Shown piece by piece: positions 2,818-31,255 of a DNA stretch of 40,156 nt. Made by a program: the position numbers and the translations under genes. The notes beneath the pieces were generated by a model, which had not been told where the DNA came from, ran no database searches, and saw only the letters and a program-made list of their open reading frames with translations. Position 1 is the first letter of the stretch; each line of letters starts with the position of its first letter. The DNA is from Shigella phage ESh23, in sequence record ON528733; one strand, written 5' to 3'.

Positions 2818-5800
2818 ATGGCGACTCGTGGTATTCGCAACAATAACATCGGGAACATTCGTGTTTCCAAAGACCAGTGGGAAGGAGCTACAGGAGACGA
2901 TGGGTCTTTCGTAACGTTCGACACTCCTGACTCTGGCGTCCGCGCTCTGGCGAAGAACCTGATGTCCTACGGTCGCCAAGGCTACGACTCAATCGAGAAG
3001 ATTATCAACCGATGGGCACCACCTAGCGAGAACGACACCCAGTCTTACATCTACTCTGTGGTTGCTGCTACTGGCATCCCGGCGACCCAAAGTATCGACT
3101 TGACGAACCCTGATGTCCTCGCCTCTCTGTCTGAGGCTATCGGCTACCACGAGACTGGTTCCCGGTATGACCCTGAGGTCTACAAGCTCGGAGTCTCTCG
3201 CGCCTTAAGTGGTGCTGGAGGCATCACCACAAAGACCCCACCAGTAAGCGCTAACGTCTTCGACGCTCTCACGGAGGGCTTGAAGTCTAAACCTAAAGTC
3301 GCTCTGGGAGAGAACCTTCCGGGCGTTACTGGTATGAACATCGAAGGTCAGGAACCTGAGGCTCCTAACGAGTCTTTCGGAGAGATGTTCTATAAGTCAA
3401 CTGGCGAGACGCTGGACCAAAGAGCTGACCGCTCTACATGGTTCGGCTTCGGTGGAGCTGCTGAGGCTGAAGTGAAGAACTCTCTGGTTGGCGTGGCTGT
3501 CCGCGCTGGTCAGACTGAGGACTCGCTCGATGTCATTGGCGATGTGTTTAACCCTACCCGCTGGAATAACCACAAGTGGTCCCGCGAGGAGTTAGACCAG
3601 ATTCGTAACGCTGGGGTACTTCCTCAGTATTACGGAGTCATCACTGGTGGTTCGCCTCAGAATCTGACCGAGCTGATTAACTTGGCGCTGGAGAACCAGA
3701 AGTTAGACGCTGAGAAGGCTAAGGCCGGGACTGGCGCTCAACTGGCGGCTGGTGTGATTGGTGCTGGCGTGGACCCACTGACCTATGTTCCTATTGCCGG
3801 ACAGGTAGGTAAAGGCGGTAAGCTGGTTAACAAGATGTTCACCGTGGCTGCTCAGTCTGGTGCGTTGGCTGGCGTGTCTGAGATTGCTCGTACCTCTGTT
3901 GCTGGTGGTGATGCTCACGTTGCCGAGGCAATTATGGGCGGTGCTCTATTCGGTGGTGGCATGACTGCTATCGGGGACGCTCTTGGCAAGGTTCTTGGAA
4001 AGTCGACCAATGAGTTCGCTGGTCCAGCTACACGTCTTGAGGCACGTGAGACTGCTCGCAACGTTGATGGTCAGGACCTGTCGCGTCTACCAATCCGTGA
4101 AGGAGAGGAGACCTTCAGTCACCAAGGCGTTAAGTTTGCTGACGTTCCTAACGAGCCGGGAAGTGTGCGACTGGAAGATGGTTCAATCCTGATTGGCGAG
4201 AACCCACTGAACCCTAAGACACGCCAAGTCTTCGACGAGGTGATTGAGCCTGAACGTGCTGCTGCTGGTGTAAACCTTGGTGGACTTACCGAGATTGGCT
4301 TGAAGCTCTTGAGGTCTGAGAACCCTGAGATTCGCGGACTTGCCGCTGACTTGGTGCGTTCCCCTACAGGTATGCAGTCAGGTGCGAGCGGGAAGATTGG
4401 GACTACAGCGTCAGACGTATTCGAGCGACTTCGTGCAGTGGACCATCGGTTCTACAACGACATCGACGATGCGGTGACTGAGGCCCTGAAGGACCCGTAC
4501 TTCCAGACCAACTTCAACCGTGACACTGGGGCTTTCCGTCAGGACATCTACCAGCGTGTGGCTTTGGCTATCGAGGACGGAAGCGGGAACCTGAAGTCTG
4601 AGCTGACTCCGGGCGAACTGAAGGTCTACGACCTGCTGAAGAACCAGTTCGACGCTAAGCGTGAGATGATGGAGAACCCTGCGATGTTCGGTCGGGCGGA
4701 CGCTAAGACCATCTTCCCCGGCAGCCGCTTCAAGGGGACATACGTTCCTCACGTCTACAGCAACCAGATGAAGGAGCTGTACATCAAGGAGCTTGGAAGC
4801 CCTGAGGCGCTGCAAGAAGCAATCAAGAAGTCGTGGCTCACGAGCTATGCGTCAAGACCTGAGGTCAAAGCTCGGGTGGATGAGGCCCTGATGGAAGCTG
4901 ACCCTAATCTGACTCCAGAAGGACTTGCGGCTGCGGTGGATAAGTACGCCAATGATAAGGCTTACGGTATCTCTCACACCGACCTATTCGAGCGCTCGTC
5001 TGTCATGGAAGAGAACATCAACGGTCTGGTGGGTCTGGAGAACAACAACTTCCTTGAGGCCCGTAACCTGTTCGATAGCGATATGTCTATCATCCTGCCA
5101 AACGGTCAACCGTTCAATGTGAACAGTCTCCGTGAGTGGGACATGGATAAGATTGTCCCGGCGTACAACCGTCGAGTCAATGGGGACATTGCTATCATGG
5201 CTGGGACCGGGAAGACCACGAAGGAGATGAAGGACGCCGTAGAGACCCTGATGAACCGTGCTGGTGATGACGGTAAGCTGAAGGGTGAAGTCTCTACATT
5301 GCGTGACACCCTGAAGATTCTGACTGGTCGTGCTCGACGTGATGGTGCAGACGATGCGGCCTTCTCTACTGTGATGCGCACCATGACAGACCTGTCCTTC
5401 TTCGCCAAGAACGCCTATATGGGGGTACAGAACTTGACGGAGATTGGCGGTATGCTGGCCCGTGGTAACGTCCGTGCGATGCTGCATGGTATTCCTATCT
5501 TCCGTGACCTAGCCTTCCGTAGCAAGAAGATGGGAGCCTCGGAGATTAAGGAGCTTCATAACGTGGTCTTCGGAAAGGAGCTTGACGACTCAATCCGTCC
5601 GTCCAAACAGGATGTCATCGACCGCCTGCGAGCGTACAGCGACCTGAGTAAACCAGTAGCTACCGCTTTAGGTTCTGCCAAGTATTACACTGGGGAACTT
5701 GCGGTCCGCTCTCCGTTTACGAAGGTCCTGAACGGGACGACTAACTACCTGCTGGATGCTGGACGTCAAGGCTTCCTGTCTGACATCGTGGAGCACAGCC

Positions 5801-9781: not shown

Positions 9782-9785
9782 GTGT

Positions 9786-9830
9786 TAGACTCAAGGTCAT
9801 TACCACTATGTGTAGTGGCCTTTATGATTA
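9786..9830 (+). promoter_or_regulatory. conserved hairpin element (RNase III site, R18.5 position): AGACTCAAGGTCAT-stem-GGCCTTTATGATTA
   Basis: Element repeated at 19949..19991 and 27027..27067; inner stem CCACTA/TAGTGG; position matches T7 R18.5. Confidence 0.4.
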
Positions 9831-9885
9831 ACACACACTACGGGCGGCGACGCTACGTGGATTCTGAGAAACGAGGAGGGCAACT

Positions 9886-12095: not shown

Positions 12096-12190
12096 CCTAA
12101 TGAATACCTACGCATGAAATCTGCATGTATAAGCAGTAAGTAGTGCGTTAGGTATCTCTCGTAACTTAATGATTCTAAAGGGAAATGGAC

Positions 12191-12212
12191 TTAACTATCA
12201 CTATAGGGAAGA
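12191..12212 (+). promoter_or_regulatory. phage RNAP promoter (phiOR position): TTAACTATCACTATAGGGAAGA
   Basis: Conserved promoter motif downstream of the terminase gene. Confidence 0.7.
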
Positions 12213-12781: not shown

Positions 12782-12960
12782 TCTCACAGTTCAAGAACCT
12801 CAAGTCTCCCCATAGGCCTCTTTAAGTCTCGACCAAAGGCCCTACCCTAGACCTTCGGTCTAAACCTCAAGTCATTGACGTCTGGTCAGGACCAAAAGTC
12901 TACCTCAAGGGCCTATATCTTGTGGTTGGGACGATTGGTCGGGACTATATGTTGTGTCTC
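12782..12960. repeat. candidate terminal repeat (collapsed single copy) beginning with the T7/T3-type left-end signature TCTCACAGTTCAAGAACC; extent approximate
   Basis: TCTCACAGT matches the first bases of the T7 genome; region is non-coding with short repeats (CCTCAAGTC x3, GACCAAAAGT x2); boundaries cannot be fixed from one copy. Confidence 0.35.
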
Positions 12961-13000
12961 CGAGTCCCTATCTGTATCAGCCTAAGGTCCTCACCTCAAG

Positions 13001-13065
13001 TCTCACTACCTACAGTCAATCCACTGGTAACGGGGCTACCTACAGTCTCACTACCTACAGTCAAT
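13001..13065. repeat. two perfect 20-bp direct repeats TCTCACTACCTACAGTCAAT (13001..13020 and 13046..13065) within a CCTACAGT-rich array
   Basis: Read directly; CCTACAGT-type motif recurs at least six times between 12700 and 13090, analogous to the CCTAAAG repeats of the T7 left end. Confidence 0.8.
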
Positions 13066-13290
13066 AGACACCTTGTTGACCTACAGTTTATCAGAGTCCT
13101 AAGGTCTAGACTCACAGGTTATCACATCCGGTCCGTTTAGCAGTCAGAGACCATAGCTGACTAGGGTTATCGTTGTTGGTGTCTGCCAACTGGACTCTTA
13201 TTATCCATAGTCCTGACCTAAAGTCAATCATCTGTAGTCATCCTTATATAGTCACTGGACTACTGTATAAATTAACATGATAAATAGTTG

Positions 13291-13319
13291 TTGACAGTAG
13301 GTCTAACTTTTGGTTTAAT
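13291..13319 (+). promoter_or_regulatory. host sigma70-type early promoter (T7 A1-like): TTGACA-17 nt-TTTAAT
   Basis: TTGACAGTAGGTCTAACTTTTGGTTTAAT resembles T7 A1 (TTGACTTAAAGTCTAACCTATAGGATACT). Confidence 0.5.
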
Positions 13320-13440
13320 AGCTTCCGTCAACACGACACGGCAACAACCGGATAGTGAAGACGCCGGGTCGGTCCGGTTAAGTAGTCAGCCTGTAAGACA
13401 TACGAACAACAGGCAACCGACAAGAAGGTGAAACAAACGC

Positions 13441-13470
13441 TTGACAAGATGTGCCGACTTAAAGTAGTAT
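13441..13470 (+). promoter_or_regulatory. host sigma70-type early promoter (T7 A3-like): TTGACA-18 nt-TAGTAT
   Basis: AAGGTGAAACAAACGCTTGACAAGATG...TAGTATGTACCACATCAACACGAC parallels the T7 A3 region (AAGGTGAAACAAAACGGTTGACAACATG...TACGATGTACCACATGAAACGAC). Confidence 0.55.
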
Positions 13471-13589
13471 GTACCACATCAACACGACGGTGAGGCCCAA
13501 CACTGAAACGGGATAGCGAGGCGACGACAGCTAAGCGAATGTTCTTTAACAATCTGGATAACTCTTAATGTGCGCCGATAGCGACTAAC

Positions 13590-13665
13590 TACAGGGCCTT
13601 GAGTCTACCGCGAGACGGGCTTGACTTGAGCGACTCAGGGTCCTGACTGATAGTCACTAACAACT
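13590..13665 (+). promoter_or_regulatory. structured leader element upstream of the first early gene (R0.3 position); shares the CCTGACTGAT-AGTCACT 3' motif with the elements at 14465 and 14905
   Basis: Position and partial match to the T7 R0.3 region (CTTTAACAATCTGG...); fold not verified. Confidence 0.3.
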
Positions 13666-13679
13666 GAGAGGATATAACT

Positions 13680-14186
13680 ATGGAACGTAACACTAACGCA
13701 TACTATGACCTGCTGGCTGCAACCGTTGAGCTGTTCAACGAGCGTATTCAGCAAGACGAAATAGCTGAAGGTGATGACTACAGCGATGCGCTGCATGAAG
13801 TCGTAGACGGTCAGGTTCCGCACTATTACAGCGAGATTTTCACGGTGATGGCTGCTGATGGTATTGACCACGAGTTCGAAGACTCTGGGCTGATGCCTGA
13901 TACCAAGGACGTAACGCGTATACTGCAAGCTCGCATCTATGAGGCACTGTATAACGATGTGTACAATAGCTCGGATGTAGTCTGGTTCGAGGCTGAAGAG
14001 AGCGACGAGGAGGACGAATACTGGGTGGTTGACGCTAAGACAGGTGCATTCATTGAGCAAGCTGTATCACTTGAGGTCGCTACTGCATGTGCCAAGGACC
14101 ACTATGCGATAGGTCGCCGCCTGAAAGTCGAAGACATCAACGACAACGTAGTGTTCGACCCTGCGGCTGCTGAGGACTGCGAGTGA
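13680..14186 (+). CDS. ocr: Ocr (T7 gp0.3-like anti-restriction DNA mimic) with ~50 aa C-terminal extension, 168 aa
   Basis: Core VPHYYSEIFTVMAADGIDHEFEDSGLMPDTKDVTRILQARIYE is near-identical to recalled T7 Ocr; acidic; first gene after the early promoters. Confidence 0.9.
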   Translation: MERNTNAYYDLLAATVELFNERIQQDEIAEGDDYSDALHEVVDGQVPHYYSEIFTVMAADGIDHEFEDSGLMPDTKDVTRILQARIYEALYNDVYNSSDVVWFEAEESDEEDEYWVVDAKTGAFIEQAVSLEVATACAKDHYAIGRRLKVEDINDNVVFDPAAAEDCE

Positions 14187-14337: not shown

Positions 14338-14463
14338 ATGTACCAGATAGCTTATAGCAGTGAACAGGCCTTCTACGATGGTCTCGTTGAGCTGATGAAG
14401 CGCGGGGCCTGCTACACGGCTAACCACCATGCGCTAACCATAACGCTGACAGGCGGGTACTGA
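14338..14463 (+). CDS. small early ORF, 41 aa
   Basis: ATG 2 nt after the previous stop; weak SD. Confidence 0.3.
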   Translation: MYQIAYSSEQAFYDGLVELMKRGACYTANHHALTITLTGGY

Positions 14464-14464
14464 G

Positions 14465-14510
14465 TGTTAAACTACAGGTCATCTACATGGTGGCCTGAGT
14501 GATTACCACT
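14465..14510 (+). promoter_or_regulatory. conserved early-region element (ACTACAGGTCATC..CATGGTGGCCTGA.TGATT..CACTT), likely RNase III site
   Basis: Near-identical copy at 14905..14950, each directly upstream of an early gene RBS. Confidence 0.3.
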
Positions 14511-14534
14511 TGACAAATATAGAAGGAAAGAATA

Positions 14535-14882: not shown

Positions 14883-14904
14883 GAACAAGCGATGTAGGTG
14901 AGTG

Positions 14905-14950
14905 CCAGACTACAGGTCATCCATGCTGGTGGCCTGACTGATTGTCACTT
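14905..14950 (+). promoter_or_regulatory. second copy of the conserved early-region element, upstream of the kinase gene
   Basis: Matches 14465..14510 copy. Confidence 0.3.
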
Positions 14951-14974
14951 AACCACAAGAAGGAAACACACGTA

Positions 14975-15709
14975 ATGAACGCACACGATAAAGTAATCAT
15001 GAATAACCTGATGTATCAGCTCCACGCTATCATCTGCGAGGAGTGCTATAAGATTGAGGACTCTAGCGCTGGCATAGCTGGTCAACCTCGCTGGGGAGCC
15101 TTTGAGATACTGGCGCGGGAACATGGTTACAAGCTGTTAGGCCTTGGACATTTCGCCGCTGCCTTTGAGCATGAGGACCTGCCGGGATATGCAATCAAGG
15201 TAGGCTTTAAGAAGGATGACTCAGGCGCTGCATATGCGGCCTTCTGCCGAGAGAACGAGGGTCTGGCTGGGCTTCCGGTCATCCATCTGGTCAAGCGCTT
15301 TAGCAGGGCATACATGGTCGCTATGGATAAGTACCGCTCACTGAATGACATTGGCGGTGACTACTGCCGGGATGGTGAGACCTACGAGCAGCGAGTCTTA
15401 AACGTGTCGTGGCGTGTAGTCAACGCGATAATAGACCATTGCGAGCAACCGTCTGAGGCCCTGAGCTGGTGGCTGGACCAAGACGCACGGGCTGAGTTTG
15501 GACACGTCGAGGCCCAGTATATCAAGGACCTTGCGCAGACCGCTAAGAAGATTAACAGTTTCTTCTACGGGCTGGCATCATTCGACACACACCGCGCTAA
15601 TGTGATGGTTGATAACAATGGGCGACTGATAATCACAGACCCAGTGTCTTGGACTCAGGCAGACCATCAAGACGAGCTGCAAGGCAGGCTGAACGCAATA
15701 GCTGAGTGA
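14975..15709 (+). CDS. serine/threonine protein kinase (T7 gp0.7-like kinase domain only), 244 aa
   Basis: Motifs LGxGHFxAA, IKVGFKKDDSGAAYAAFCR, FFYGLASFDTHRANVM, ITDPVS match recalled T7 gp0.7; ATG 14975 with RBS preferred over TTG 14942. Confidence 0.85.
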   Translation: MNAHDKVIMNNLMYQLHAIICEECYKIEDSSAGIAGQPRWGAFEILAREHGYKLLGLGHFAAAFEHEDLPGYAIKVGFKKDDSGAAYAAFCRENEGLAGLPVIHLVKRFSRAYMVAMDKYRSLNDIGGDYCRDGETYEQRVLNVSWRVVNAIIDHCEQPSEALSWWLDQDARAEFGHVEAQYIKDLAQTAKKINSFFYGLASFDTHRANVMVDNNGRLIITDPVSWTQADHQDELQGRLNAIAE

Positions 15710-15716
15710 TAGACGA

Positions 15717-15754
15717 GAGGCCACTACATCTAGTGGTCTCAAAGATTATTTCTC
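15717..15754 (+). terminator. stem-loop (10 bp stem GAGGCCACTA/TAGTGGTCTC, loop CATC) followed by AAAGATTATTTCTC; possible weak terminator or processing site
   Basis: Read directly; U-tract is not contiguous with the stem. Confidence 0.3.
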
Positions 15755-15774
15755 ACAACATATAGAGGTGAACT

Positions 15775-15864
15775 ATGAACATCGGGTACTGGGTGTGCTT
15801 ATCTCCGGTCATCTTTCTGATAGCTTGGGGTCTTCTGGATGCAATCAAGCGAGGGTCTCTGTAA
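15775..15864 (+). CDS. 29-aa hydrophobic peptide (MNIGYWVCLSPVIFLIAWGLLDAIKRGSL)
   Basis: GAGGTG SD 7 nt upstream; stop overlaps next start (TAATG). Confidence 0.35.
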   Translation: MNIGYWVCLSPVIFLIAWGLLDAIKRGSL

Positions 15865-16058
15865 TGGGCTGGATACTTCTGGTCATCGGCTACGGGCTAA
15901 TACTCGCAGTCATCACGAAAGACATCATCAAGGCACGTAAAGTCTACCGCTTCCAGTATGTATCACTGGGGCGCTGGACTGTAAGACAACCGAACGGACG
16001 CTTTCTGCGCAACCTCGCAAACGTCTGGGATATAGCAACCTTAGGGAGTAAACTGTAA
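15864..16058 (+). CDS. small membrane protein, 65 aa (N-terminal TM helix, basic C-terminus)
   Basis: ATG-initiated version of track ORF 15768..16058; translationally coupled on both sides. Confidence 0.5.
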   Translation: MGWILLVIGYGLILAVITKDIIKARKVYRFQYVSLGRWTVRQPNGRFLRNLANVWDIATLGSKL

Positions 16059-16384
16059 TGAATAAGTCATACGGGATTAATCTGGTTCATGCTCTGGACG
16101 CAGACCTTAACCTGCTTTCAGCACTGGCTACAGGATACCGTCACAGGACCTCAAGTCACACCATTCGTCAACAGCAGGAGCGCGACCGGGTGCTGCAAGC
16201 AAGACTCCGGGCCGAGGGCCATAAGTCCGAGCTGATGTGTCTGGCGTATGGTGGACGACCTCGCACGGACGATGGTAAACTTCTGGTCTCAGGCTGGATG
16301 GCGATAGACCAGCGGTCAGGCATCAAGCATACATCCAAAGGCGACTTCAGCCATCTCCACGCTAACACACTGATATGCAAGTAG
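16058..16384 (+). CDS. hypothetical early protein, 108 aa
   Basis: ORF coupled to the upstream ORF (TAATGA); no motif recognised. Confidence 0.55.
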   Translation: MNKSYGINLVHALDADLNLLSALATGYRHRTSSHTIRQQQERDRVLQARLRAEGHKSELMCLAYGGRPRTDDGKLLVSGWMAIDQRSGIKHTSKGDFSHLHANTLICK

Positions 16385-16391
16385 TTTGGAC

Positions 16392-16410
16392 TAAACTATC
16401 ACTAAAGGAC
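16392..16410 (+). promoter_or_regulatory. variant phage-type promoter upstream of the RNAP gene: TAAACTATCACTAAAGGAC
   Basis: Matches the consensus except A for T at -2 (T3-like CACTAAAGG). Confidence 0.45.
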
Positions 16411-16487
16411 TCAAGGTCGAAAGACTCTAAGTCAGGACTGAAGTGAAAGACTTTAGTGATAAGACAACAGTTATAAGGACTTTAAGT

Positions 16488-19169
16488 ATGAGCGTCATCT
16501 CAATTGACAAACACGACTTCTCTGATGTGTCGAATGCAATCGAACCTTTCAACGTACTGGCGGACCACTACGGGCAAGACCTCGCAGTCAAACAGCTCCA
16601 GCTAGAGCATGAGGCATACACTGAAGGTGAGCGACGTTTCATTAAGAACCTTGAGCGTCAGACTGAGCGCGGGGAACTGGCAGACAATCAGGTTGCTAAG
16701 CCACTGATGCAAACGCTGGTCCCAACCATCGCTAAGGCTGTGCGTGAGTGGCATGAAGGCCCGGACGGTAAGTCCTCGACCTCTCGCCCAAGCGTAGCGT
16801 TTACCATGCTGAGCACTGACGAGAAGGCTGTCAAAGACCGCTCTCTGCGCATCTCTCCAGAGTCCGCTGCGGTCATCATACTGAAGGTCATTCTCAGCAA
16901 GCTGGTCAAGCCTGAGGGCATCCCGATAACTCCTATGGCGTCCGCGATAGGTCGCACACTGGAAGATGAAATCCGCTTTGGTCGAATCCGTGAGCAGGAG
17001 CAGGAGCATTTCAAGAAGACCATAGCGGAGAACCTGAAGAAACGCGCTGGCGCAAGCTACAAGAAGGCCTACATGCAGGCAGTCGAGGCGTCTATGCTTG
17101 AGCAGGGACAACTGGCTGACGCGTGGGGGACTTGGAGTCCGACCGAGGCAGTTCATGTAGGCATAAAGATGCTAGAGCTGGTCATCCAGTCATCGCAACT
17201 GGTCGAGCTGAAGCGCTACGGTGCAGGCAATGCTGCGGTAGACGTCGAGATGGTTCACCTGTCTGACTTCTGGGTCAAGAAGATGGCTCAGCGTGGCTTC
17301 TCTCTGGCTGGAATTTCCCCAGTTTACCAGCCCTGCGTCGTGCCACCTAAGCCGTGGACCGGGGTGGTTGGCGGTGGGTACTGGGCTAAGGGTCGCAGGC
17401 CACTCCCTCTGATTCGCTTAGGGTCTAAGGCTGCGGTCCAGCGCTACGAAGACGTGTACATGCCTGAAGTGTATGAGGCAGTGAACATCATTCAGCAGAC
17501 TCCTTGGAAGGTAAACAAGAAGGTGCTGGAAGTGGTGAACATGGTCGAGAAGCTGAATAACACGCCTATCGCTGACATCCCTCAGATGGAGCCGCTGAAG
17601 CCTGAAGACTATGCGGGTGAGACCGAGGAGGAGCTTAAGGCTTGGAAGAAATCTGCGGCTGGCATCTATCGACGCGAGAAGGCCCGACAGTCTCGCCGTT
17701 TATCGCTGAGCTTCATCGTCTCACAGGCTAACAAGTTCTCTCAGTTCAAGGCCATATGGTTCCCGTACAACATGGACTGGCGAGGTCGTGTTTACGCAGT
17801 CCCGATGTTCAACCCTCAGGGCAACGATATGCAGAAGGGCCTGCTGACTCTGGCGGTAGGCAAGCCAATCGGTGCGGACGGCTTCAAATGGCTGAAGGTA
17901 CACGGTGCAAACTGCGCGGGTGTAGATAAAGTCACCTTTGAGGAGCGCATCAAGTGGGTTGAGGACAACCACGACAACATCCTAGCGACTGCTAAGAGTC
18001 CGATGGATAGCATTGACTGGTGGGGCCAGTTAGACTCTCCGTTCTGCTTCCTCGCGTTCTGCTTTGAGTATGCCGGGGTTATGCACCACGGGCTGAGCTA
18101 CTCCTGCTCTCTGCCTATCGCGTTCGATGGGTCCTGCTCTGGGATTCAGCACTTCAGCGCTATGCTCCGTGACCACGTTGGTGGACATGCGGTAAACCTG
18201 ACGCCTTCCGGTAAGGTCCAAGACATCTACCGCATTGTGTCCGACCGGGTGGAAGAACAGCTCAAGGAGCTGCTGGTCAACGGCAGTGACAACGAGGTGA
18301 AGACCTTCGAGGACAAGAAGACAGGCGAGATTACTGAACGTCTGGTCCTTGGGACCCGTGAGCTGGCCCGACAGTGGCTGACCTACGGGATGTCACGCTC
18401 GGTCACTAAACGCTCGGTAATGACTCTGGCCTATGGGTCGAAGGAATACGGGTTCGCGGACCAAGTGTTTGAGGATACCGTGATGCCAGCGATTGATAGT
18501 GGCAAGGGAGCAATGTTCACGGACCCAAGCCAAGCGTCTCGCTTCATGGCTAAGATGATATGGGACGCTGTGAGTGTGACCGTAGTGGCTGCGGTGGATG
18601 CAATGAAGTGGCTTCAGGGTGCGGCTAAACTGCTGGCTGCCGAGGTCAAGGACAAGAAGACCAAAGAGGTCCTTAAGCCTTGCCTTCCGGTTCACTGGGT
18701 AACACCTGATGGCTTCCCGGTATGGCAGGAATACCGCAAGAAAGACACAACGCGCCTGAATCTACTGTTCCTTGGGTCGTTCAACCTGCAACCGACAGTC
18801 AATAAGGGGTCGAAGAAAGAGCTGGACAAGCACAAGCAGGAGTCCGGTATCAGCCCTAACTTTGTACACTCACAGGATGGCAGTCACCTGAGGAAGACTG
18901 TGGTCCACACCCACCGCAAGTATGGCGTGATGTCCTTCGCGGTGATTCACGACAGCTTTGGGACCATACCAGCAGACGCTGAGTTCCTGTTCAAGGGAGT
19001 CCGTGAGACGATGGTCGAGACCTACCGCGACAACGATGTGCTGCAAGACTTCTACGAGCAGTTCGCGGACCAGCTTCACGAGAGCCAGCGCGACAAGTTG
19101 CCTGAGCTGCCTAAGCGCGGTAAACTGAACATCGAAGACATTCTGTTATCTGACTTTGCATTCGCCTGA
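16488..19169 (+). CDS. single-subunit DNA-directed RNA polymerase (T7 gp1-like), 893 aa
   Basis: Collinear with recalled T7 RNAP from N-terminus (DFSDxxxAxxPFNxLADHYG) to C-terminus (LHESQxDKxPxLPxxGxLNxxDILxSDFAFA); ATG 16488 preferred over GTG 16443. Confidence 0.97.
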   Translation: MSVISIDKHDFSDVSNAIEPFNVLADHYGQDLAVKQLQLEHEAYTEGERRFIKNLERQTERGELADNQVAKPLMQTLVPTIAKAVREWHEGPDGKSSTSRPSVAFTMLSTDEKAVKDRSLRISPESAAVIILKVILSKLVKPEGIPITPMASAIGRTLEDEIRFGRIREQEQEHFKKTIAENLKKRAGASYKKAYMQAVEASMLEQGQLADAWGTWSPTEAVHVGIKMLELVIQSSQLVELKRYGAGNAAVDVEMVHLSDFWVKKMAQRGFSLAGISPVYQPCVVPPKPWTGVVGGGYWAKGRRPLPLIRLGSKAAVQRYEDVYMPEVYEAVNIIQQTPWKVNKKVLEVVNMVEKLNNTPIADIPQMEPLKPEDYAGETEEELKAWKKSAAGIYRREKARQSRRLSLSFIVSQANKFSQFKAIWFPYNMDWRGRVYAVPMFNPQGNDMQKGLLTLAVGKPIGADGFKWLKVHGANCAGVDKVTFEERIKWVEDNHDNILATAKSPMDSIDWWGQLDSPFCFLAFCFEYAGVMHHGLSYSCSLPIAFDGSCSGIQHFSAMLRDHVGGHAVNLTPSGKVQDIYRIVSDRVEEQLKELLVNGSDNEVKTFEDKKTGEITERLVLGTRELARQWLTYGMSRSVTKRSVMTLAYGSKEYGFADQVFEDTVMPAIDSGKGAMFTDPSQASRFMAKMIWDAVSVTVVAAVDAMKWLQGAAKLLAAEVKDKKTKEVLKPCLPVHWVTPDGFPVWQEYRKKDTTRLNLLFLGSFNLQPTVNKGSKKELDKHKQESGISPNFVHSQDGSHLRKTVVHTHRKYGVMSFAVIHDSFGTIPADAEFLFKGVRETMVETYRDNDVLQDFYEQFADQLHESQRDKLPELPKRGKLNIEDILLSDFAFA

Positions 19170-19181
19170 GGAGGCATCTAC

Positions 19182-19382
19182 ATGAAATTCGCACACAAGC
19201 AAACTGGCGTTAAAGGCGGAACTCAAATCGTGACCGTGACCGAACATAATGGCAAGGGTCTGGTAAAGACCACGGTCATTCCAACCGAGATGTCAAAGCA
19301 GCTTAACGTCCCATTCAAATGGCTGGTGCAGCAGGTTGAGAAGTCACACGAACAGGCCTTGACCGAGGCTGTGACGAAATGA
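19182..19382 (+). CDS. hypothetical protein, 66 aa (inserted after the RNAP gene relative to T7)
   Basis: Strong SD GAGGAGG 7 nt upstream of ATG. Confidence 0.6.
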   Translation: MKFAHKQTGVKGGTQIVTVTEHNGKGLVKTTVIPTEMSKQLNVPFKWLVQQVEKSHEQALTEAVTK

Positions 19383-19460: not shown

Positions 19461-19931
19461 ATGTTTGGTAAGTCAAAACTTAAAGCGCAAATCAAAGAGT
19501 TGAGCATGAAGGCGGCATACTTGGAGCGAGCCGTAGAGGTCCGTGACAAGGACAACGAGAGGCTGAAGGATAAACTTGCTGAGTCCGAGCGCAGACGCTT
19601 AACGCCGCCAGAGCCTGTGACTGTGAAGCGTATGGTAGGCCTGAAGTTCAGGGCGCTGTTCAATGGCCTCTATCAGCCGACTGAGTTCAAGACCGGGCCT
19701 GGGCCATGTGGCAAGACAGTGACTCACTTCACCACGAGTCGTACCGAGCGGGAGCTGACTATCCACCAGCACCACACGGATGGCTCTCAGAAGGACTTTG
19801 AGTATCGACTTAGCGACATCGACGGTCGAATCCAGTACGACTATGAGCAAGTTAAAGTATACGGAGAAGAGGCCGAACGCGAGCGAGCGCTTCAGGCATT
19901 CGTTCGGGTAAGACCTCGCGTCGTCATCTAA
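19461..19931 (+). CDS. hypothetical protein with N-terminal coiled-coil, 156 aa
   Basis: SD AGAGG upstream; ends at the phi1.1-position promoter. Confidence 0.6.
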   Translation: MFGKSKLKAQIKELSMKAAYLERAVEVRDKDNERLKDKLAESERRRLTPPEPVTVKRMVGLKFRALFNGLYQPTEFKTGPGPCGKTVTHFTTSRTERELTIHQHHTDGSQKDFEYRLSDIDGRIQYDYEQVKVYGEEAERERALQAFVRVRPRVVI

Positions 19932-19948
19932 ACTATCACTATAGGATT
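19929..19948 (+). promoter_or_regulatory. phage RNAP promoter (phi1.1 position): TAAACTATCACTATAGGATT
   Basis: Conserved promoter motif. Confidence 0.7.
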
Positions 19949-19991
19949 AGACTCAAGGTCATGACTCAAAGTCGTGGCCTTTATGATTAAC
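19949..19991 (+). promoter_or_regulatory. conserved hairpin element (RNase III site, R1.1 position)
   Basis: AGACTCAAGGTCATGACTCAAAGTCGTGGCCTTTATGATTAAC; same family as 9786 and 27027. Confidence 0.4.
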
Positions 19992-20020
19992 CCTAACTCA
20001 ATACAATCAGGAGCTACACC

Positions 20021-22287: not shown

Positions 22288-22369
22288 ATGGTGCGAGATG
22301 ATGTTCGAGAGGACAGGTAACACTGACTACCTCGAAATGTATAACATCTGGAAAGGGAGAGGGCTATGA
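22274..22369 (+). CDS. small ORF, 31 aa (T7 gene 1.8 position)
   Basis: Fills the gap between flanking genes; overlapping start/stop with neighbours. Confidence 0.3.
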
Positions 22370-22530
22370 GTCAGGACGAGAAGAAGTACATCGTGGAGCT
22401 TGAGGGTCGCGTTCAGTCCTTTGAGGTCCCGGTATACGCCAAGTCTCTGGACGAGGCGACCCTAAAGTCTCAGGAGTACGAAGATGCTGGTTTCGTGGTA
22501 GGCCGCATCCGACCTGAGCTGCACGACTAA
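22366..22530 (+). CDS. inhibitor of host RNA polymerase (T7 gp2-like), 54 aa
   Basis: [14 protein letters not shown] matches recalled T7 gp2 (SFEVPIYAETLDEA). Confidence 0.75.
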
Positions 22531-23731: not shown

Positions 23732-23952
23732 CTAAAGAAGTGCAGGTAGTCCGCGAGCGACTGACCATTGATAAAATCCCGGTGGGCTACGCGTTCATCG
23801 TTCATGGTCGACCGGACGAAGTGTACGTGAAGATTAGCAACTCGCATGTCTTCAACCATAAGCGCCTCCAGATGCACACGACTGTTAGCGAGCGCTTCAA
23901 GTCTCACCTGAATCTCGTAATCGTCGAGCTGGTGGTGTACAATGGTAAGTAA
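23728..23952 (+). CDS. hypothetical protein, 74 aa, inserted between endonuclease I and lysozyme genes
   Basis: Strong SD AAAGGAG; overlapping start and stop with neighbours. Confidence 0.6.
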   Translation: MTKEVQVVRERLTIDKIPVGYAFIVHGRPDEVYVKISNSHVFNHKRLQMHTTVSERFKSHLNLVIVELVVYNGK

Positions 23953-24400
23953 GGTTCAGTTCAAACCGCGTACAGTAACTGACGCAATCTTCGTCCACTG
24001 TAGTGCGACCCAACCGTCTCAGGACATCGGGGTAGACACCATCCGAATGTGGCACAAGCAGCAGGGCTGGCTGGACGTAGGCTATCACTTCGTCATCAAG
24101 CGTGATGGCACTGTGGAGTCTGGACGTCCGGTCGATGTAGTAGGGTCACACGTTAAGGACTGGAACTCCCGGTCCGTAGGCGTCTGCCTTGTAGGTGGAA
24201 TTGACGCCAAGGGTAAGTTTGAAGCTAACTTCACACCTGCCCAGATGAGCGCTCTACGAAACAAGCTGGCCGAACTGAAGGCATTGTACCCTCAGGCAGA
24301 CATCAAGGCTCACCACGATGTAGCACCAAAGGCTTGCCCAAGTTTTGACTTGCAGCGCTGGCTTAATACTAACGAACTGGTCACTTCCGACCGAGGCTAA
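23942..24400 (+). CDS. lysozyme / N-acetylmuramoyl-L-alanine amidase (T7 gp3.5-like), 152 aa
   Basis: DAIFVHCSAT, WLDVGYHF, KRDGTVE, GVCLVGGID, KACPSFDL, NELVTSDRG match recalled T7 gp3.5. Confidence 0.95.
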   Translation: MVSKVQFKPRTVTDAIFVHCSATQPSQDIGVDTIRMWHKQQGWLDVGYHFVIKRDGTVESGRPVDVVGSHVKDWNSRSVGVCLVGGIDAKGKFEANFTPAQMSALRNKLAELKALYPQADIKAHHDVAPKACPSFDLQRWLNTNELVTSDRG

Positions 24401-27011: not shown

Positions 27012-27027
27012 CTATCACTGTAGGATA
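27008..27027 (+). promoter_or_regulatory. phage RNAP promoter (phi4.7 position): TTAACTATCACTGTAGGATA
   Basis: Consensus with G at -2. Confidence 0.6.
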
Positions 27028-27067
27028 GACTCAAGGCCATTCACTTCGAGTGGTCTTTATGATTAGA
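27027..27067 (+). promoter_or_regulatory. conserved hairpin element (RNase III site, R4.7 position)
   Basis: AGACTCAAGGCCATTCACTTCGAGTGGTCTTTATGATTAGAC; third copy of the family. Confidence 0.4.
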
Positions 27068-31172: not shown

Positions 31173-31192
31173 TAAACTATCACTATAGGGAC
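31173..31192 (+). promoter_or_regulatory. phage RNAP promoter (phi6.5 position): TAAACTATCACTATAGGGAC
   Basis: Conserved promoter motif. Confidence 0.7.
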
Positions 31193-31255
31193 TTTAGGAC
31201 CTAAGTTATGACTATAAGATAAACTTAAGTTAATACTTTAAGAGGAGACTTTAAG

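What the first reader, a model, noticed from the sequence alone, without database searches (positions are those of the whole stretch)
16392..16410. Phage-type promoter placed upstream of the phage's own RNAP gene
A copy of the phage promoter consensus with one change (CACTAAAGG) lies 78 nt upstream of the RNAP start codon. In T7, gene 1 is transcribed only by host RNAP. If active, this would give positive autoregulation of the polymerase.
Basis: partly seen in the sequence, partly recalled or inferred. Interest (0 to 1): 0.45.

Follow-up and report, generated by a model that had tools for sequence, protein, structure and literature searches.

The report
Phage promoter ahead of polymerase gene
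The phage's own promoter sequence really does sit just upstream of its RNA polymerase gene and is almost certainly functional, but this layout is conserved in all K1F-like phages, is already annotated in public records, and occurs in several other T7 relatives, so it is ordinary.

Summary
The window is a circularly permuted genome of a K1F-like phage (genus Kayfunavirus). Positions 16390-16412 (+) are one of 12 copies of the phage promoter ACTWAACTATCACTATA|GGRA, all on the + strand. The predicted start is G16407, 81 nt before the polymerase ATG at 16488. The only departure from consensus is T to A at -2.

The site is not chance. It scores 28.9 bits against a matrix built from the other 11 copies, and the best non-promoter position scores 4 bits. 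All 28 Kayfunavirus sequences examined carry it at the same place. In a sub-clade whose polymerase specificity loop became T3-like, this site changed from AACTATCACT to AACCCTCACT together with that phage's other promoters.

Most likely mechanism, inferred and not shown: host polymerase makes the first gene 1 mRNA. The phage polymerase then also transcribes gene 1 and the two following ORFs from this promoter, giving a positive loop.

It is not new. EcoDS1 (same genus), gh-1 and phi15 records annotate such a promoter. For LUZ100 a mapped phage promoter directly upstream of the polymerase gene was proposed to amplify its own transcription. T7 and T3 instead have phiOL far upstream, so "host polymerase only" is oversimplified.

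The parts
16390..16412 (+). Phage RNA polymerase promoter, positions -17 to +6 (ACTAAACTATCACTAAA|GGACTC). Predicted start is G16407. The single deviation from consensus is A at -2 (16405).
   Evidence: Same place in 28/28 Kayfunavirus sequences, and the most conserved block of the intergenic region.
16407..16487 (+). 81-nt leader of the predicted phage-polymerase transcript, with Shine-Dalgarno AAGGA at 16475-16479. GC is 39% over +1..+80. It holds the densest A[AG]GAC array in the window.
   Evidence: No supported conserved fold and no Rfam family.
16488..19169 (+). Gene 1, single-subunit RNA polymerase (893 aa), with a K1F-type specificity loop (RLNL.FLGSFNLQ).
19182..19382 (+). Small ORF (66 aa) downstream of gene 1, in the same predicted phage-polymerase transcription unit. 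No phage promoter lies between 16407 and 19944.
   Evidence: Homologous ORFs are annotated in relatives.
19461..19931 (+). Homologue of T3 gene 1.05. It is the last gene before the next phage promoter.
   Evidence: Pfam Phage_T3_1_05, E=1.5e-26.
19927..19949 (+). Next phage promoter (start 19944), equivalent to phi1.1. It is followed by a repeat shared with sequences next to or near other promoters (RNase III-like by my recollection).
16058..16384 (+). Last early ORF (108 aa) before the promoter. Its stop codon ends 5 nt before promoter position -17.
   Evidence: Its DNA matches the stretch of EcoDS1 that carries gp0.38.
12189..12211 (+). Right-end phage promoter (start 12206, phiOR equivalent). 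It lies before the terminal repeat. In a concatemer it is the only other phage promoter upstream of gene 1.
12782..12968 (.). Approximate terminal repeat, present as a single collapsed copy. The physical left end of the genome maps to about 12782. A TATCTGTA motif like the annotated EcoDS1 concatemer junction sits at about 12969.
   Evidence: blastn of the K1F and EcoDS1 left ends.
13289..13650 (+). Region homologous to the three annotated host-polymerase early promoters of EcoDS1. It must provide the first gene 1 transcripts. No phiOL-like phage promoter occurs here.
23942..24400 (+). Homologue of T7 gp3.5 lysozyme (70% identity). It is the inferred brake on the loop.
   Evidence: tblastn. 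The role is inferred from T7 biology.
22363..22515 (+). Homologue of T7 gp2, the host RNA polymerase inhibitor. It is the inferred reason that late gene 1 transcription would need a phage promoter.
   Evidence: tblastn. The role is inferred from T7 biology.

Best explanation
The site is a working promoter for the phage's own single-subunit RNA polymerase: the first phage promoter on the entering genome of a K1F-like phage. Inferred sequence of events: host RNA polymerase starts at the early promoters near 13.3-13.65 kb and reads through to gene 1, since nothing terminator-like intervenes. The first polymerase molecules then bind ACTAAACTATCACTAAA and start at G16407. The resulting RNA carries the gene 1 ribosome-binding site, gene 1, the 66-aa ORF and the gene 1.05 homologue. 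Gene 1 is thus both an early (host-transcribed) and a middle (self-transcribed) gene. This is a positive loop that keeps polymerase mRNA coming after the gp2 and gp0.7 homologues shut off host polymerase. The loop is probably bounded by the gp3.5 lysozyme homologue and by competition from the stronger late promoters. This promoter resembles T7 class II promoters rather than class III (it starts GGAC, not GGGAGA, and carries the -2 change). Shown: the sequence, its family membership, its conservation and its co-variation with polymerase specificity. Inferred: initiation, translation of that transcript, and the size of the effect.
For: The family is sharply defined: 12 sites at 32-41 bits against 4 bits for the next best position (28.9 bits for this site when it is left out of the matrix), all on the + strand. 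The site is present 75-81 nt upstream of gene 1 in K1F itself, in 23 of 24 IMG/VR relatives (the exception is a 50%-identity outlier), and in all 28 Kayfunavirus sequences aligned. Positions -17..+6 show 0.94 column identity, against 0.77 just upstream and 0.72 in the mid-leader. Co-variation: L021, L022, L026/L041 and Cronobacter phage CtuP_B1 carry AACCCTCACT both here and at their other promoters. Their polymerases have T3-like D and R where the window has N and N, at T7 positions 748 and 756. Grafting experiments link 756N to ACTAT and 748D to ACCCT (PMC11880802 Table 2). K1F polymerase with its cognate promoter is used as an orthogonal expression pair (PMC12218169). A at -2 is the consensus base in T3-type promoters. 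There is no terminator-like site on the + strand between 12.8 and 20.5 kb and no other phage promoter between 16407 and 19944. Homologues of gp0.7, gp2 and gp3.5 are present. Precedents: a mapped LUZ100 phage promoter (phi1) directly upstream of the polymerase gene, with a stated self-amplification model, and curated promoter annotations in EcoDS1, gh-1 and phi15.
Against: I found no transcript 5'-end data for any Kayfunavirus; a search for transcriptome papers found none. The -2 T to A change is unique among the 12 promoters of this genome and may weaken the site. The leader shows no supported structure and no evidence either way on translation efficiency. Conservation shows that the promoter is used, not that raising polymerase dosage is the selected function. 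T7, T3 and K11-type phages manage without a gene-1-proximal promoter.
Confidence: 0.7

Rival explanations
1. The promoter is functional, but what is selected is its role as the first middle-class promoter. It gives phage-polymerase transcription of the ORFs after gene 1 (19182-19382 and the 1.05 homologue). It would also hand transcription, and perhaps transcription-driven genome entry, over from the host polymerase early. Extra polymerase would then be a by-product.
For: No phage promoter lies between the gene 1 stop (19169) and 19944. T3, by contrast, has phi1.05 immediately after gene 1 and ahead of gene 1.05. This site is the first phage promoter on the entering genome because there is no phiOL.
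Against: Any transcript from 16407 must pass through 2.7 kb of gene 1 carrying its ribosome-binding site, so polymerase mRNA is made regardless. A promoter placed after gene 1, as in T3, would serve the downstream genes more cheaply.
Confidence: 0.17
2. The site mainly acts as a replication origin or priming site, or as a stand-in for the missing left-end promoter phiOL (T7 promoters double as origins), rather than for gene expression.
For: Kayfunavirus lacks any phiOL-like site, whereas 56 of 61 other Studiervirinae loci have one. The 60-nt stretch 16446-16505 is the sixth most AT-rich in the window.
Against: The leader is only about 61-68% AT and is not exceptional. The most AT-rich stretch following a promoter is after 31188 (27% GC). 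The site lies 3.6 kb from the left end, not between the terminal repeat and the host promoters. phi15 has both a left-end site and a gene-1-proximal site.
Confidence: 0.08
3. In this sub-clade the -2 T to A change has largely silenced the site, so here it is a decaying copy of the K1F promoter.
For: -2A is unique among the 12 promoters of this genome. Position -2 lies in the region that melts at initiation (established T7 knowledge).
Against: The -2A variant is stably shared by 8 of the 28 sequences, with every other promoter base intact. Decay would scatter changes across the site. A at -2 is the natural consensus of T3-type promoters recognised by closely related polymerases.
Confidence: 0.04
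4. A chance match or a non-functional relic.
For: None beyond the lack of direct transcript data.
Against: 0.01 matches are expected by chance. There is a 25-bit gap to background. The site is present in 28/28 relatives and changes together with the polymerase specificity loop.
Confidence: 0.01

Closest known systems
Annotated 'phi' promoter of Escherichia phage EcoDS1 (NC_011042, 2244-2266) and the homologous site in K1F (NC_007456, start 2491)
   Same: Same genus, same position (75 nt before gene 1, directly after the last early ORF), same 23-bp sequence class and same downstream genes.
   Different: This window has A instead of T at -2 and a 6-nt longer variant leader (81 vs 75 nt). That form is shared by a sub-clade including SFPH2-like phages and Pectobacterium phage LET1.
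phi1 of Pseudomonas phage gh-1 (NC_004665, 939-961), the phage promoter at 3871-3893 of phi15 (FR823298), and a predicted site about 30 nt upstream of gene 1 in Pectobacterium phage Jarilo
   Same: A consensus phage promoter lies within about 30-120 nt upstream of the polymerase gene in other Studiervirinae genera.
   Different: Different promoter specificities and early-gene sets. The gh-1 record overlays the site with a putative host terminator and host promoter. phi15 also keeps a left-end promoter.
LUZ100 promoter phi1 (PMC10134795) and the phiA318 promoter upstream of the kinase and polymerase genes (PMC4099482)
   Same: A phage-specific promoter directly upstream of the phage polymerase gene, explicitly interpreted as self-amplification or autoregulation. 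The LUZ100 promoter elements were identified by ONT-cappable-seq.
   Different: In LUZ100 the loop is proposed to be gated by a MarR-like repressor and an upstream terminator, as part of a lysogeny switch. Nothing of that kind is present here, where early transcription appears to read straight through.
T7/T3 promoter phiOL, and the T7 0.7-gene 1 junction (E. coli C promoter plus RNase III site R1)
   Same: phiOL is also a phage promoter upstream of gene 1, so T7-type phages also allow some self-transcription in principle.
   Different: phiOL lies 2.5-3.4 kb upstream, between the terminal repeat and the host promoters. The T7/T3 intergenic space before gene 1 holds a minor host promoter and an RNase III site, not a phage promoter. 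Kayfunavirus has no phiOL.
Engineered T7 'autogene' (gene 1 under a T7 promoter; Dubendorff and Studier 1991, from my own knowledge; later uses in PMC6395690 and PMC1500874, seen)
   Same: Same circuit logic: a polymerase gene driven by its cognate promoter and needing a seed of polymerase from another source.
   Different: The autogene is an artificial construct that is hard to maintain because of runaway expression. Here the loop runs only during a lytic infection that kills the cell anyway, and lysozyme probably limits it.

Membership tests
T7-group phage promoter (K1F/Kayfunavirus specificity class) | About 23 bp (-17..+6) matching the genome's own repeated promoter consensus, far above background | tested here: met
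   28.9 bits when left out of the matrix, 34.9 bits in the full model; the best non-member scores 4 bits. One mismatch, at -2.
T7-group phage promoter (K1F/Kayfunavirus specificity class) | Same strand as the genes, located between genes or at a gene's 3' end | tested here: met
   All 12 sites are on the + strand. This one lies in the 103-nt gap between stop 16384 and ATG 16488.
T7-group phage promoter (K1F/Kayfunavirus specificity class) | Specificity bases (-12..-8) fit the cognate polymerase's specificity loop | tested here: met
   The site has ACTAT and the polymerase has the 756N-type loop. Relatives with 748D/756R have ACCCT at this same site. The experimental link is in PMC11880802 Table 2.
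T7-group phage promoter (K1F/Kayfunavirus specificity class) | GG at +1/+2 following the -4..-1 melting element | tested here: met
   TAAA|GG here, against TATA|GG in the consensus. TAAA is the form found in T3 promoters.
T7-group phage promoter (K1F/Kayfunavirus specificity class) | Initiation by the cognate polymerase at the predicted +1 | not testable with these tools
   Needs in vitro transcription or 5'-end mapping. No Kayfunavirus transcriptome was found.
Positive autoregulatory loop (natural 'autogene') | A promoter read by the gene's own product, upstream of that gene, with no terminator in between | tested here: met
   No terminator-like site on the + strand between 16407 and 19944. 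This is a consensus scan only.
Positive autoregulatory loop (natural 'autogene') | An independent source of the first polymerase molecules | tested here: met
   A region at about 13.29-13.65 kb is homologous to the annotated EcoDS1 host promoters, and one strong sigma-70-like match lies at 13441. No terminator-like site separates it from gene 1.
Positive autoregulatory loop (natural 'autogene') | The self-made transcript raises polymerase output | not testable with these tools
   The ribosome-binding site lies within the transcript. The effect size is unknown.
phiOL-type left-end promoter (T7/T3) | Lies between the left terminal repeat and the host early promoters | tested here: not met
   The site is about 3.6 kb from the mapped left end (about 12782), downstream of all early genes.
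T7-type primary replication origin | Phage promoter(s) followed by a strongly AT-rich stretch (about 80% AT in T7, from my own knowledge) | tested here: inconclusive
   The leader is 61-68% AT, only the sixth most AT-rich 60-mer in the window. A stronger candidate follows promoter 31188.

The most novel reading that the evidence does not exclude
K1F-like phages may have given up the left-end promoter phiOL and made the polymerase gene a natural, self-amplifying 'autogene'. The -2A variant fixed in this sub-clade would then be a tuned-down version that sets the gain of the loop. Together with the clade that switched promoter specificity (ACTAT to ACCCT, with N748D and N756R), this would be a natural series for studying how a polymerase, its promoters and its own feedback promoter co-evolve.
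Probability: 0.15. Interest if true: 0.4.

Novelty: already known. Interest (0 to 1): 0.2.

Why it matters
If it is active, gene 1 in K1F-like phages is not a purely early gene. Polymerase supply would continue after host polymerase shut-off, which changes how the timing of these widely used therapeutic and synthetic-biology phages should be modelled. It also matters for anyone cloning K1F-type polymerase genes with their native upstream sequence, because the construct would feed back on itself. As a discovery it adds little. The element is already annotated in the genus, and the idea is published for related phages.

Tried and rejected
1. Conserved leader RNA structure or RNase III site between +1 and the ATG. 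The single-sequence fold is no better than shuffles (z = -0.97). The alignment fold gives only a weak 10-pair stem between the 5' end and the Shine-Dalgarno region, with no compensatory changes. Rfam finds nothing in the whole window. I dropped it as unsupported.

2. Replication-origin reading. AT-richness after the promoter is unremarkable.

3. A T7-type class II pause signal (ATCTGTT) near the site. There is none, and only 3 copies occur in the window against about 5 expected.

4. A weaker phiOL-like site between the terminal repeat and gene 0.3. Nothing above 4 bits.

5. A tandem repeat in the leader. TRF finds only a weak 13-nt repeat of 2.2 copies in the window and none in K1F.

6. Literature. 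The K1F genome paper (Scholl and Merril 2005, PMC1317022) and Chen and Schneider 2005 (PMC1275584) are not held. I therefore could not check whether the K1F paper discusses this promoter. A search for 'K1F-like' promoters gave nothing, and no Kayfunavirus transcriptome was found.

7. An apparent exception, L069, with a promoter 617 nt upstream of gene 1. It turned out to be phiOL in a T3-like phage that lacks genes 0.3-0.7.

8. SP6. No SP6 promoter lies upstream of its polymerase gene at up to 3 mismatches.

Full report
WHAT THE WINDOW IS. The 40,156-nt window is a circularly permuted genome of a T7-group phage of the genus Kayfunavirus (K1F-like, subfamily Studiervirinae). The region 15700-17200 is 96.8% identical to Salmonella phage ST57 and 95.5% identical to Shigella phage SFPH2. 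It matches 212 phage records, mostly Escherichia, Salmonella and Enterobacter phages. The polymerase gene runs from 16488 to 19169 (893 aa; Pfam RNA_pol E=9e-106). It is 62% identical to T7 gp1 (tblastn) and 93.5% identical to the K1F polymerase in a global alignment. blastn of the K1F and EcoDS1 left ends places the physical left end of the genome at about 12782. A single collapsed terminal repeat spans about 12782-12968. It ends at a TATCTGTA motif like the annotated EcoDS1 concatemer junction. The region homologous to the three annotated EcoDS1 host promoters lies at about 13.29-13.65 kb. Gene 0.3 (ocr) starts at 13680, and a gp0.7 kinase homologue occupies 14942-15709.

Positions 16392-16410 read TAAACTATCACTAAAGGAC. 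The phage carries 12 copies of ACTWAACTATCACTATA|GGRA, all on the + strand, between genes or at gene 3' ends. A weight matrix built from the 12 copies separates them cleanly from everything else: 32-41 bits for members against 4 bits for the next best position on either strand. The gene 1 site scores 28.9 bits when left out of the matrix, ranking 10th of 12. Its only departure from the core consensus is T to A at -2. By analogy with T7 the start is G16407, 81 nt before ATG 16488. The Shine-Dalgarno AAGGA sits at 16475-16479.

IT IS UNDER SELECTION AS A TARGET OF THE PHAGE'S OWN POLYMERASE. K1F itself has a perfect copy at the homologous place, 75 nt before gene 1. Of 24 IMG/VR relatives, 23 have it; the exception is a 50%-identity outlier from another lineage. 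In an alignment of 28 Kayfunavirus sequences, every one has the site. The block -17..+6 is the most conserved part of the intergenic region: 0.94 mean column identity, against 0.77 for the 5 nt upstream and 0.72 for the middle of the leader, which carries indels.

The strongest evidence is co-variation. In L021, L022, L026/L041 and Cronobacter phage CtuP_B1, the site reads ATTAAACCCTCACT(A/G)TAGG, and the other promoters of those genomes read the same way. Their polymerases carry RLDLMFLGTFRLQ where the window, K1F and EcoDS1 carry RLNL(L/M)FLGSFNLQ. These are the T3-like residues D and R at T7 positions 748 and 756. Loop-grafting experiments summarised in PMC11880802 (Table 2) link 756N with ACTAT and 748D with ACCCT. 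A fossil or chance site would not have followed the polymerase through a specificity switch.

The -2A form is shared by 8 of the 28 sequences, with all other promoter bases intact. These are the window, L003, L005, L006, L007, L008, L023 and Pectobacterium phage LET1. A at -2 is also the consensus base in T3-type promoters. I therefore expect a working, perhaps somewhat weaker, promoter. That is an inference.

HOW IT MOST LIKELY WORKS. The terminator-like scan finds nothing on the + strand between 12.8 and 20.5 kb. Host polymerase starting at the early promoters should therefore reach gene 1 and supply the first polymerase, as it must. No phage promoter lies between 12206 (the right-end, phiOR-like site before the terminal repeat) and 16407, and none lies between 16407 and 19944. 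The 16407 promoter is thus the first phage promoter on the entering DNA. It is also the only one that can give phage-polymerase transcripts of gene 1, the 66-aa ORF at 19182-19382 and the gene 1.05 homologue at 19461-19931 (Pfam Phage_T3_1_05). Any RNA started there carries the gene 1 ribosome-binding site. Self-transcription of gene 1, a positive loop, is therefore the straightforward consequence.

Homologues of T7 gp2 (host polymerase inhibitor, 22363-22515) and gp3.5 (lysozyme, 70% identical, 23942-24400) are present. From established T7 biology I infer two things. The loop would keep polymerase mRNA coming after host shut-off. It would later be damped by lysozyme, which in T7 preferentially reduces use of weaker class II-type promoters, and by competition from the late GGGAGA-type promoters. 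None of this is shown for Kayfunavirus. I found no 5'-end or transcriptome data.

RIVALS. (1) The promoter may be selected mainly for the downstream ORFs or for an early hand-over to the faster phage polymerase. T3 places phi1.05 after gene 1 for that purpose. Even so, polymerase mRNA would still be produced. (2) It may act as an origin or as a substitute for phiOL. The leader is only moderately AT-rich (39% GC over +1..+80), and the most AT-rich stretch after a promoter follows 31188. This reading is neither supported nor excluded. (3) The -2A change may have silenced the site. That is unlikely given the clean conservation of the rest. (4) Chance is excluded.

COMPARISON WITH WHAT IS KNOWN. 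The T7 and T3 records show phiOL at the far left, before promoters A1-A3. The gap before gene 1 holds only the minor E. coli C promoter and, as annotated in the T3 record, the RNase III site R1.

A de novo promoter scan of 61 non-Kayfunavirus Studiervirinae loci found none with a phage promoter within 600 nt upstream of gene 1. These loci were T7-, T3-, Berlin-like and K11-like. Of them, 56 had a site 0.6-3.4 kb upstream. In the other five I found no upstream site, and only 0.7-2.4 kb of upstream sequence was available. The nearest case (-617) was phiOL in a T3-like phage that has lost genes 0.3-0.7. 'Only host polymerase' is too strong, however, because phiOL lies upstream of gene 1. Kayfunavirus has the converse layout: no phiOL, but a gene-1-proximal promoter.

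That layout is not new. The curated EcoDS1 record annotates 'promoter phi' at 2244-2266, directly before gene 1 at 2336. The gh-1 record annotates 'phi1; putative gh-1 RNAP promoter' at 939-961, before the polymerase gene at 1058, and its sequence matches the other strong gh-1 promoters. The phi15 record annotates one at 3871-3893, before the polymerase gene at 4009. My scan also finds one about 30 nt before the polymerase gene of Pectobacterium phage Jarilo.

For LUZ100, promoter elements were identified by ONT-cappable-seq. Its phage-specific promoter phi1 lies directly upstream of the polymerase gene, and the authors propose that the polymerase 'amplifies its own transcription' (PMC10134795). 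For phiA318 a predicted promoter upstream of the kinase and polymerase genes was read as autoregulation (PMC4099482). A recent Kayfunavirus genome note lists the consensus CTWAACTATCACTATAGG with a copy at the 3' end of the gene preceding the polymerase gene (PMC13298934). SP6 and Vibrio phage ICP3 have no such site. The engineered T7 autogene is the artificial counterpart (from my own knowledge; later uses appeared).

VERDICT. The feature is a conserved and already annotated property of the genus, found in several sister genera. What remains open is experimental: whether the site fires, how strongly, and whether it matters for polymerase dosage. The by-products with some value are the clean promoter/specificity-loop co-variation within Kayfunavirus and the complementary distribution of phiOL and the gene-1-proximal promoter. 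Interest is low (0.2). Novelty: already known.

Noticed in passing
L021 2908-2931, L022 2902-2925, L026 2909-2932, L041, L112 (Cronobacter phage vB_CtuP_B1); compare window 16390-16412: A Kayfunavirus sub-clade has switched promoter specificity from AACTATCACT to T3-like AACCCTCACT at all its promoters. Its polymerase specificity loop changed N to D and N to R at T7 positions 748 and 756, and its AT-rich recognition loop also differs. Overall polymerase identity to the window remains 87-92%.
   Followed up: yes
window 12782-13680: Kayfunavirus has no phiOL-type phage promoter between the terminal repeat and the host early promoters, whereas 56 of 61 T7-, T3- and K11-like loci do. phiOL and the gene-1-proximal promoter look roughly complementary across genera, although phi15 has both.
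   Followed up: partly
window 16405-16482: The gene 1 leader holds the densest array of A[AG]GAC in the whole window: six copies in 81 nt at roughly 14-nt spacing, and the only place with five or more. K1F-type leaders keep a similar array despite indels. TRF sees only a weak 13-nt repeat. Its function is unknown; it could be Shine-Dalgarno-like or protein-binding motifs.
   Followed up: partly
window 9785-9839, 19947-19998, 27025-27043; and 14461-14514, 14899-14953: Two families of conserved repeats. One is TTAGACTCAAGGTCAT...GTGGCCTTTATGATTAAC, two of whose three copies directly follow phage promoters. The other is CTACAGGTCATC...TGGTGGCCTGA in the early region, and it resembles the T7/T3 R1 sequence read. 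Both look like RNase III processing sites. No such element lies directly before gene 1, unlike the annotated T3 R1 site and the matching T7 sequence.
   Followed up: no
window 31193-31252: The second most AT-rich 60-mer of the window (27% GC) directly follows the promoter at 31188 (phi6.5 equivalent). It contains a degenerate promoter-like repeat at 31217 (4 bits). It is a candidate replication origin.
   Followed up: no
window 12993-13065: Short direct repeats (ACCTACAGTC-type units, two 28-nt copies 45 nt apart) lie just inside the left end after the terminal repeat. In relatives this motif is the most frequent 10-mer of the region.
   Followed up: no
window 16443-16487: The longest ORF for the polymerase starts at GTG 16443, which lies inside the leader. 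Homology and the ribosome-binding site support ATG 16488, so an automatic caller using the longest ORF would mis-annotate the start.
   Followed up: yes
GenBank records OR786095 (Staphylococcus phage MBBL139) and PQ520054 (Enterococcus phage IME_EF3): Records labelled as phages of Gram-positive hosts match this enterobacterial Kayfunavirus region at about 93% identity. The host labels are probably wrong or the samples mixed. Several RefSeq records also call the T7-type polymerase 'N4-like RNA polymerase'.
   Followed up: no
L069 8300-10010: A T3-like phage (36-kb contig) appears to lack the whole 0.3-0.7 early gene block. phiOR, the terminal repeat, phiOL, three host promoters and an RNase III-like site are followed directly by gene 1.
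   Followed up: partly
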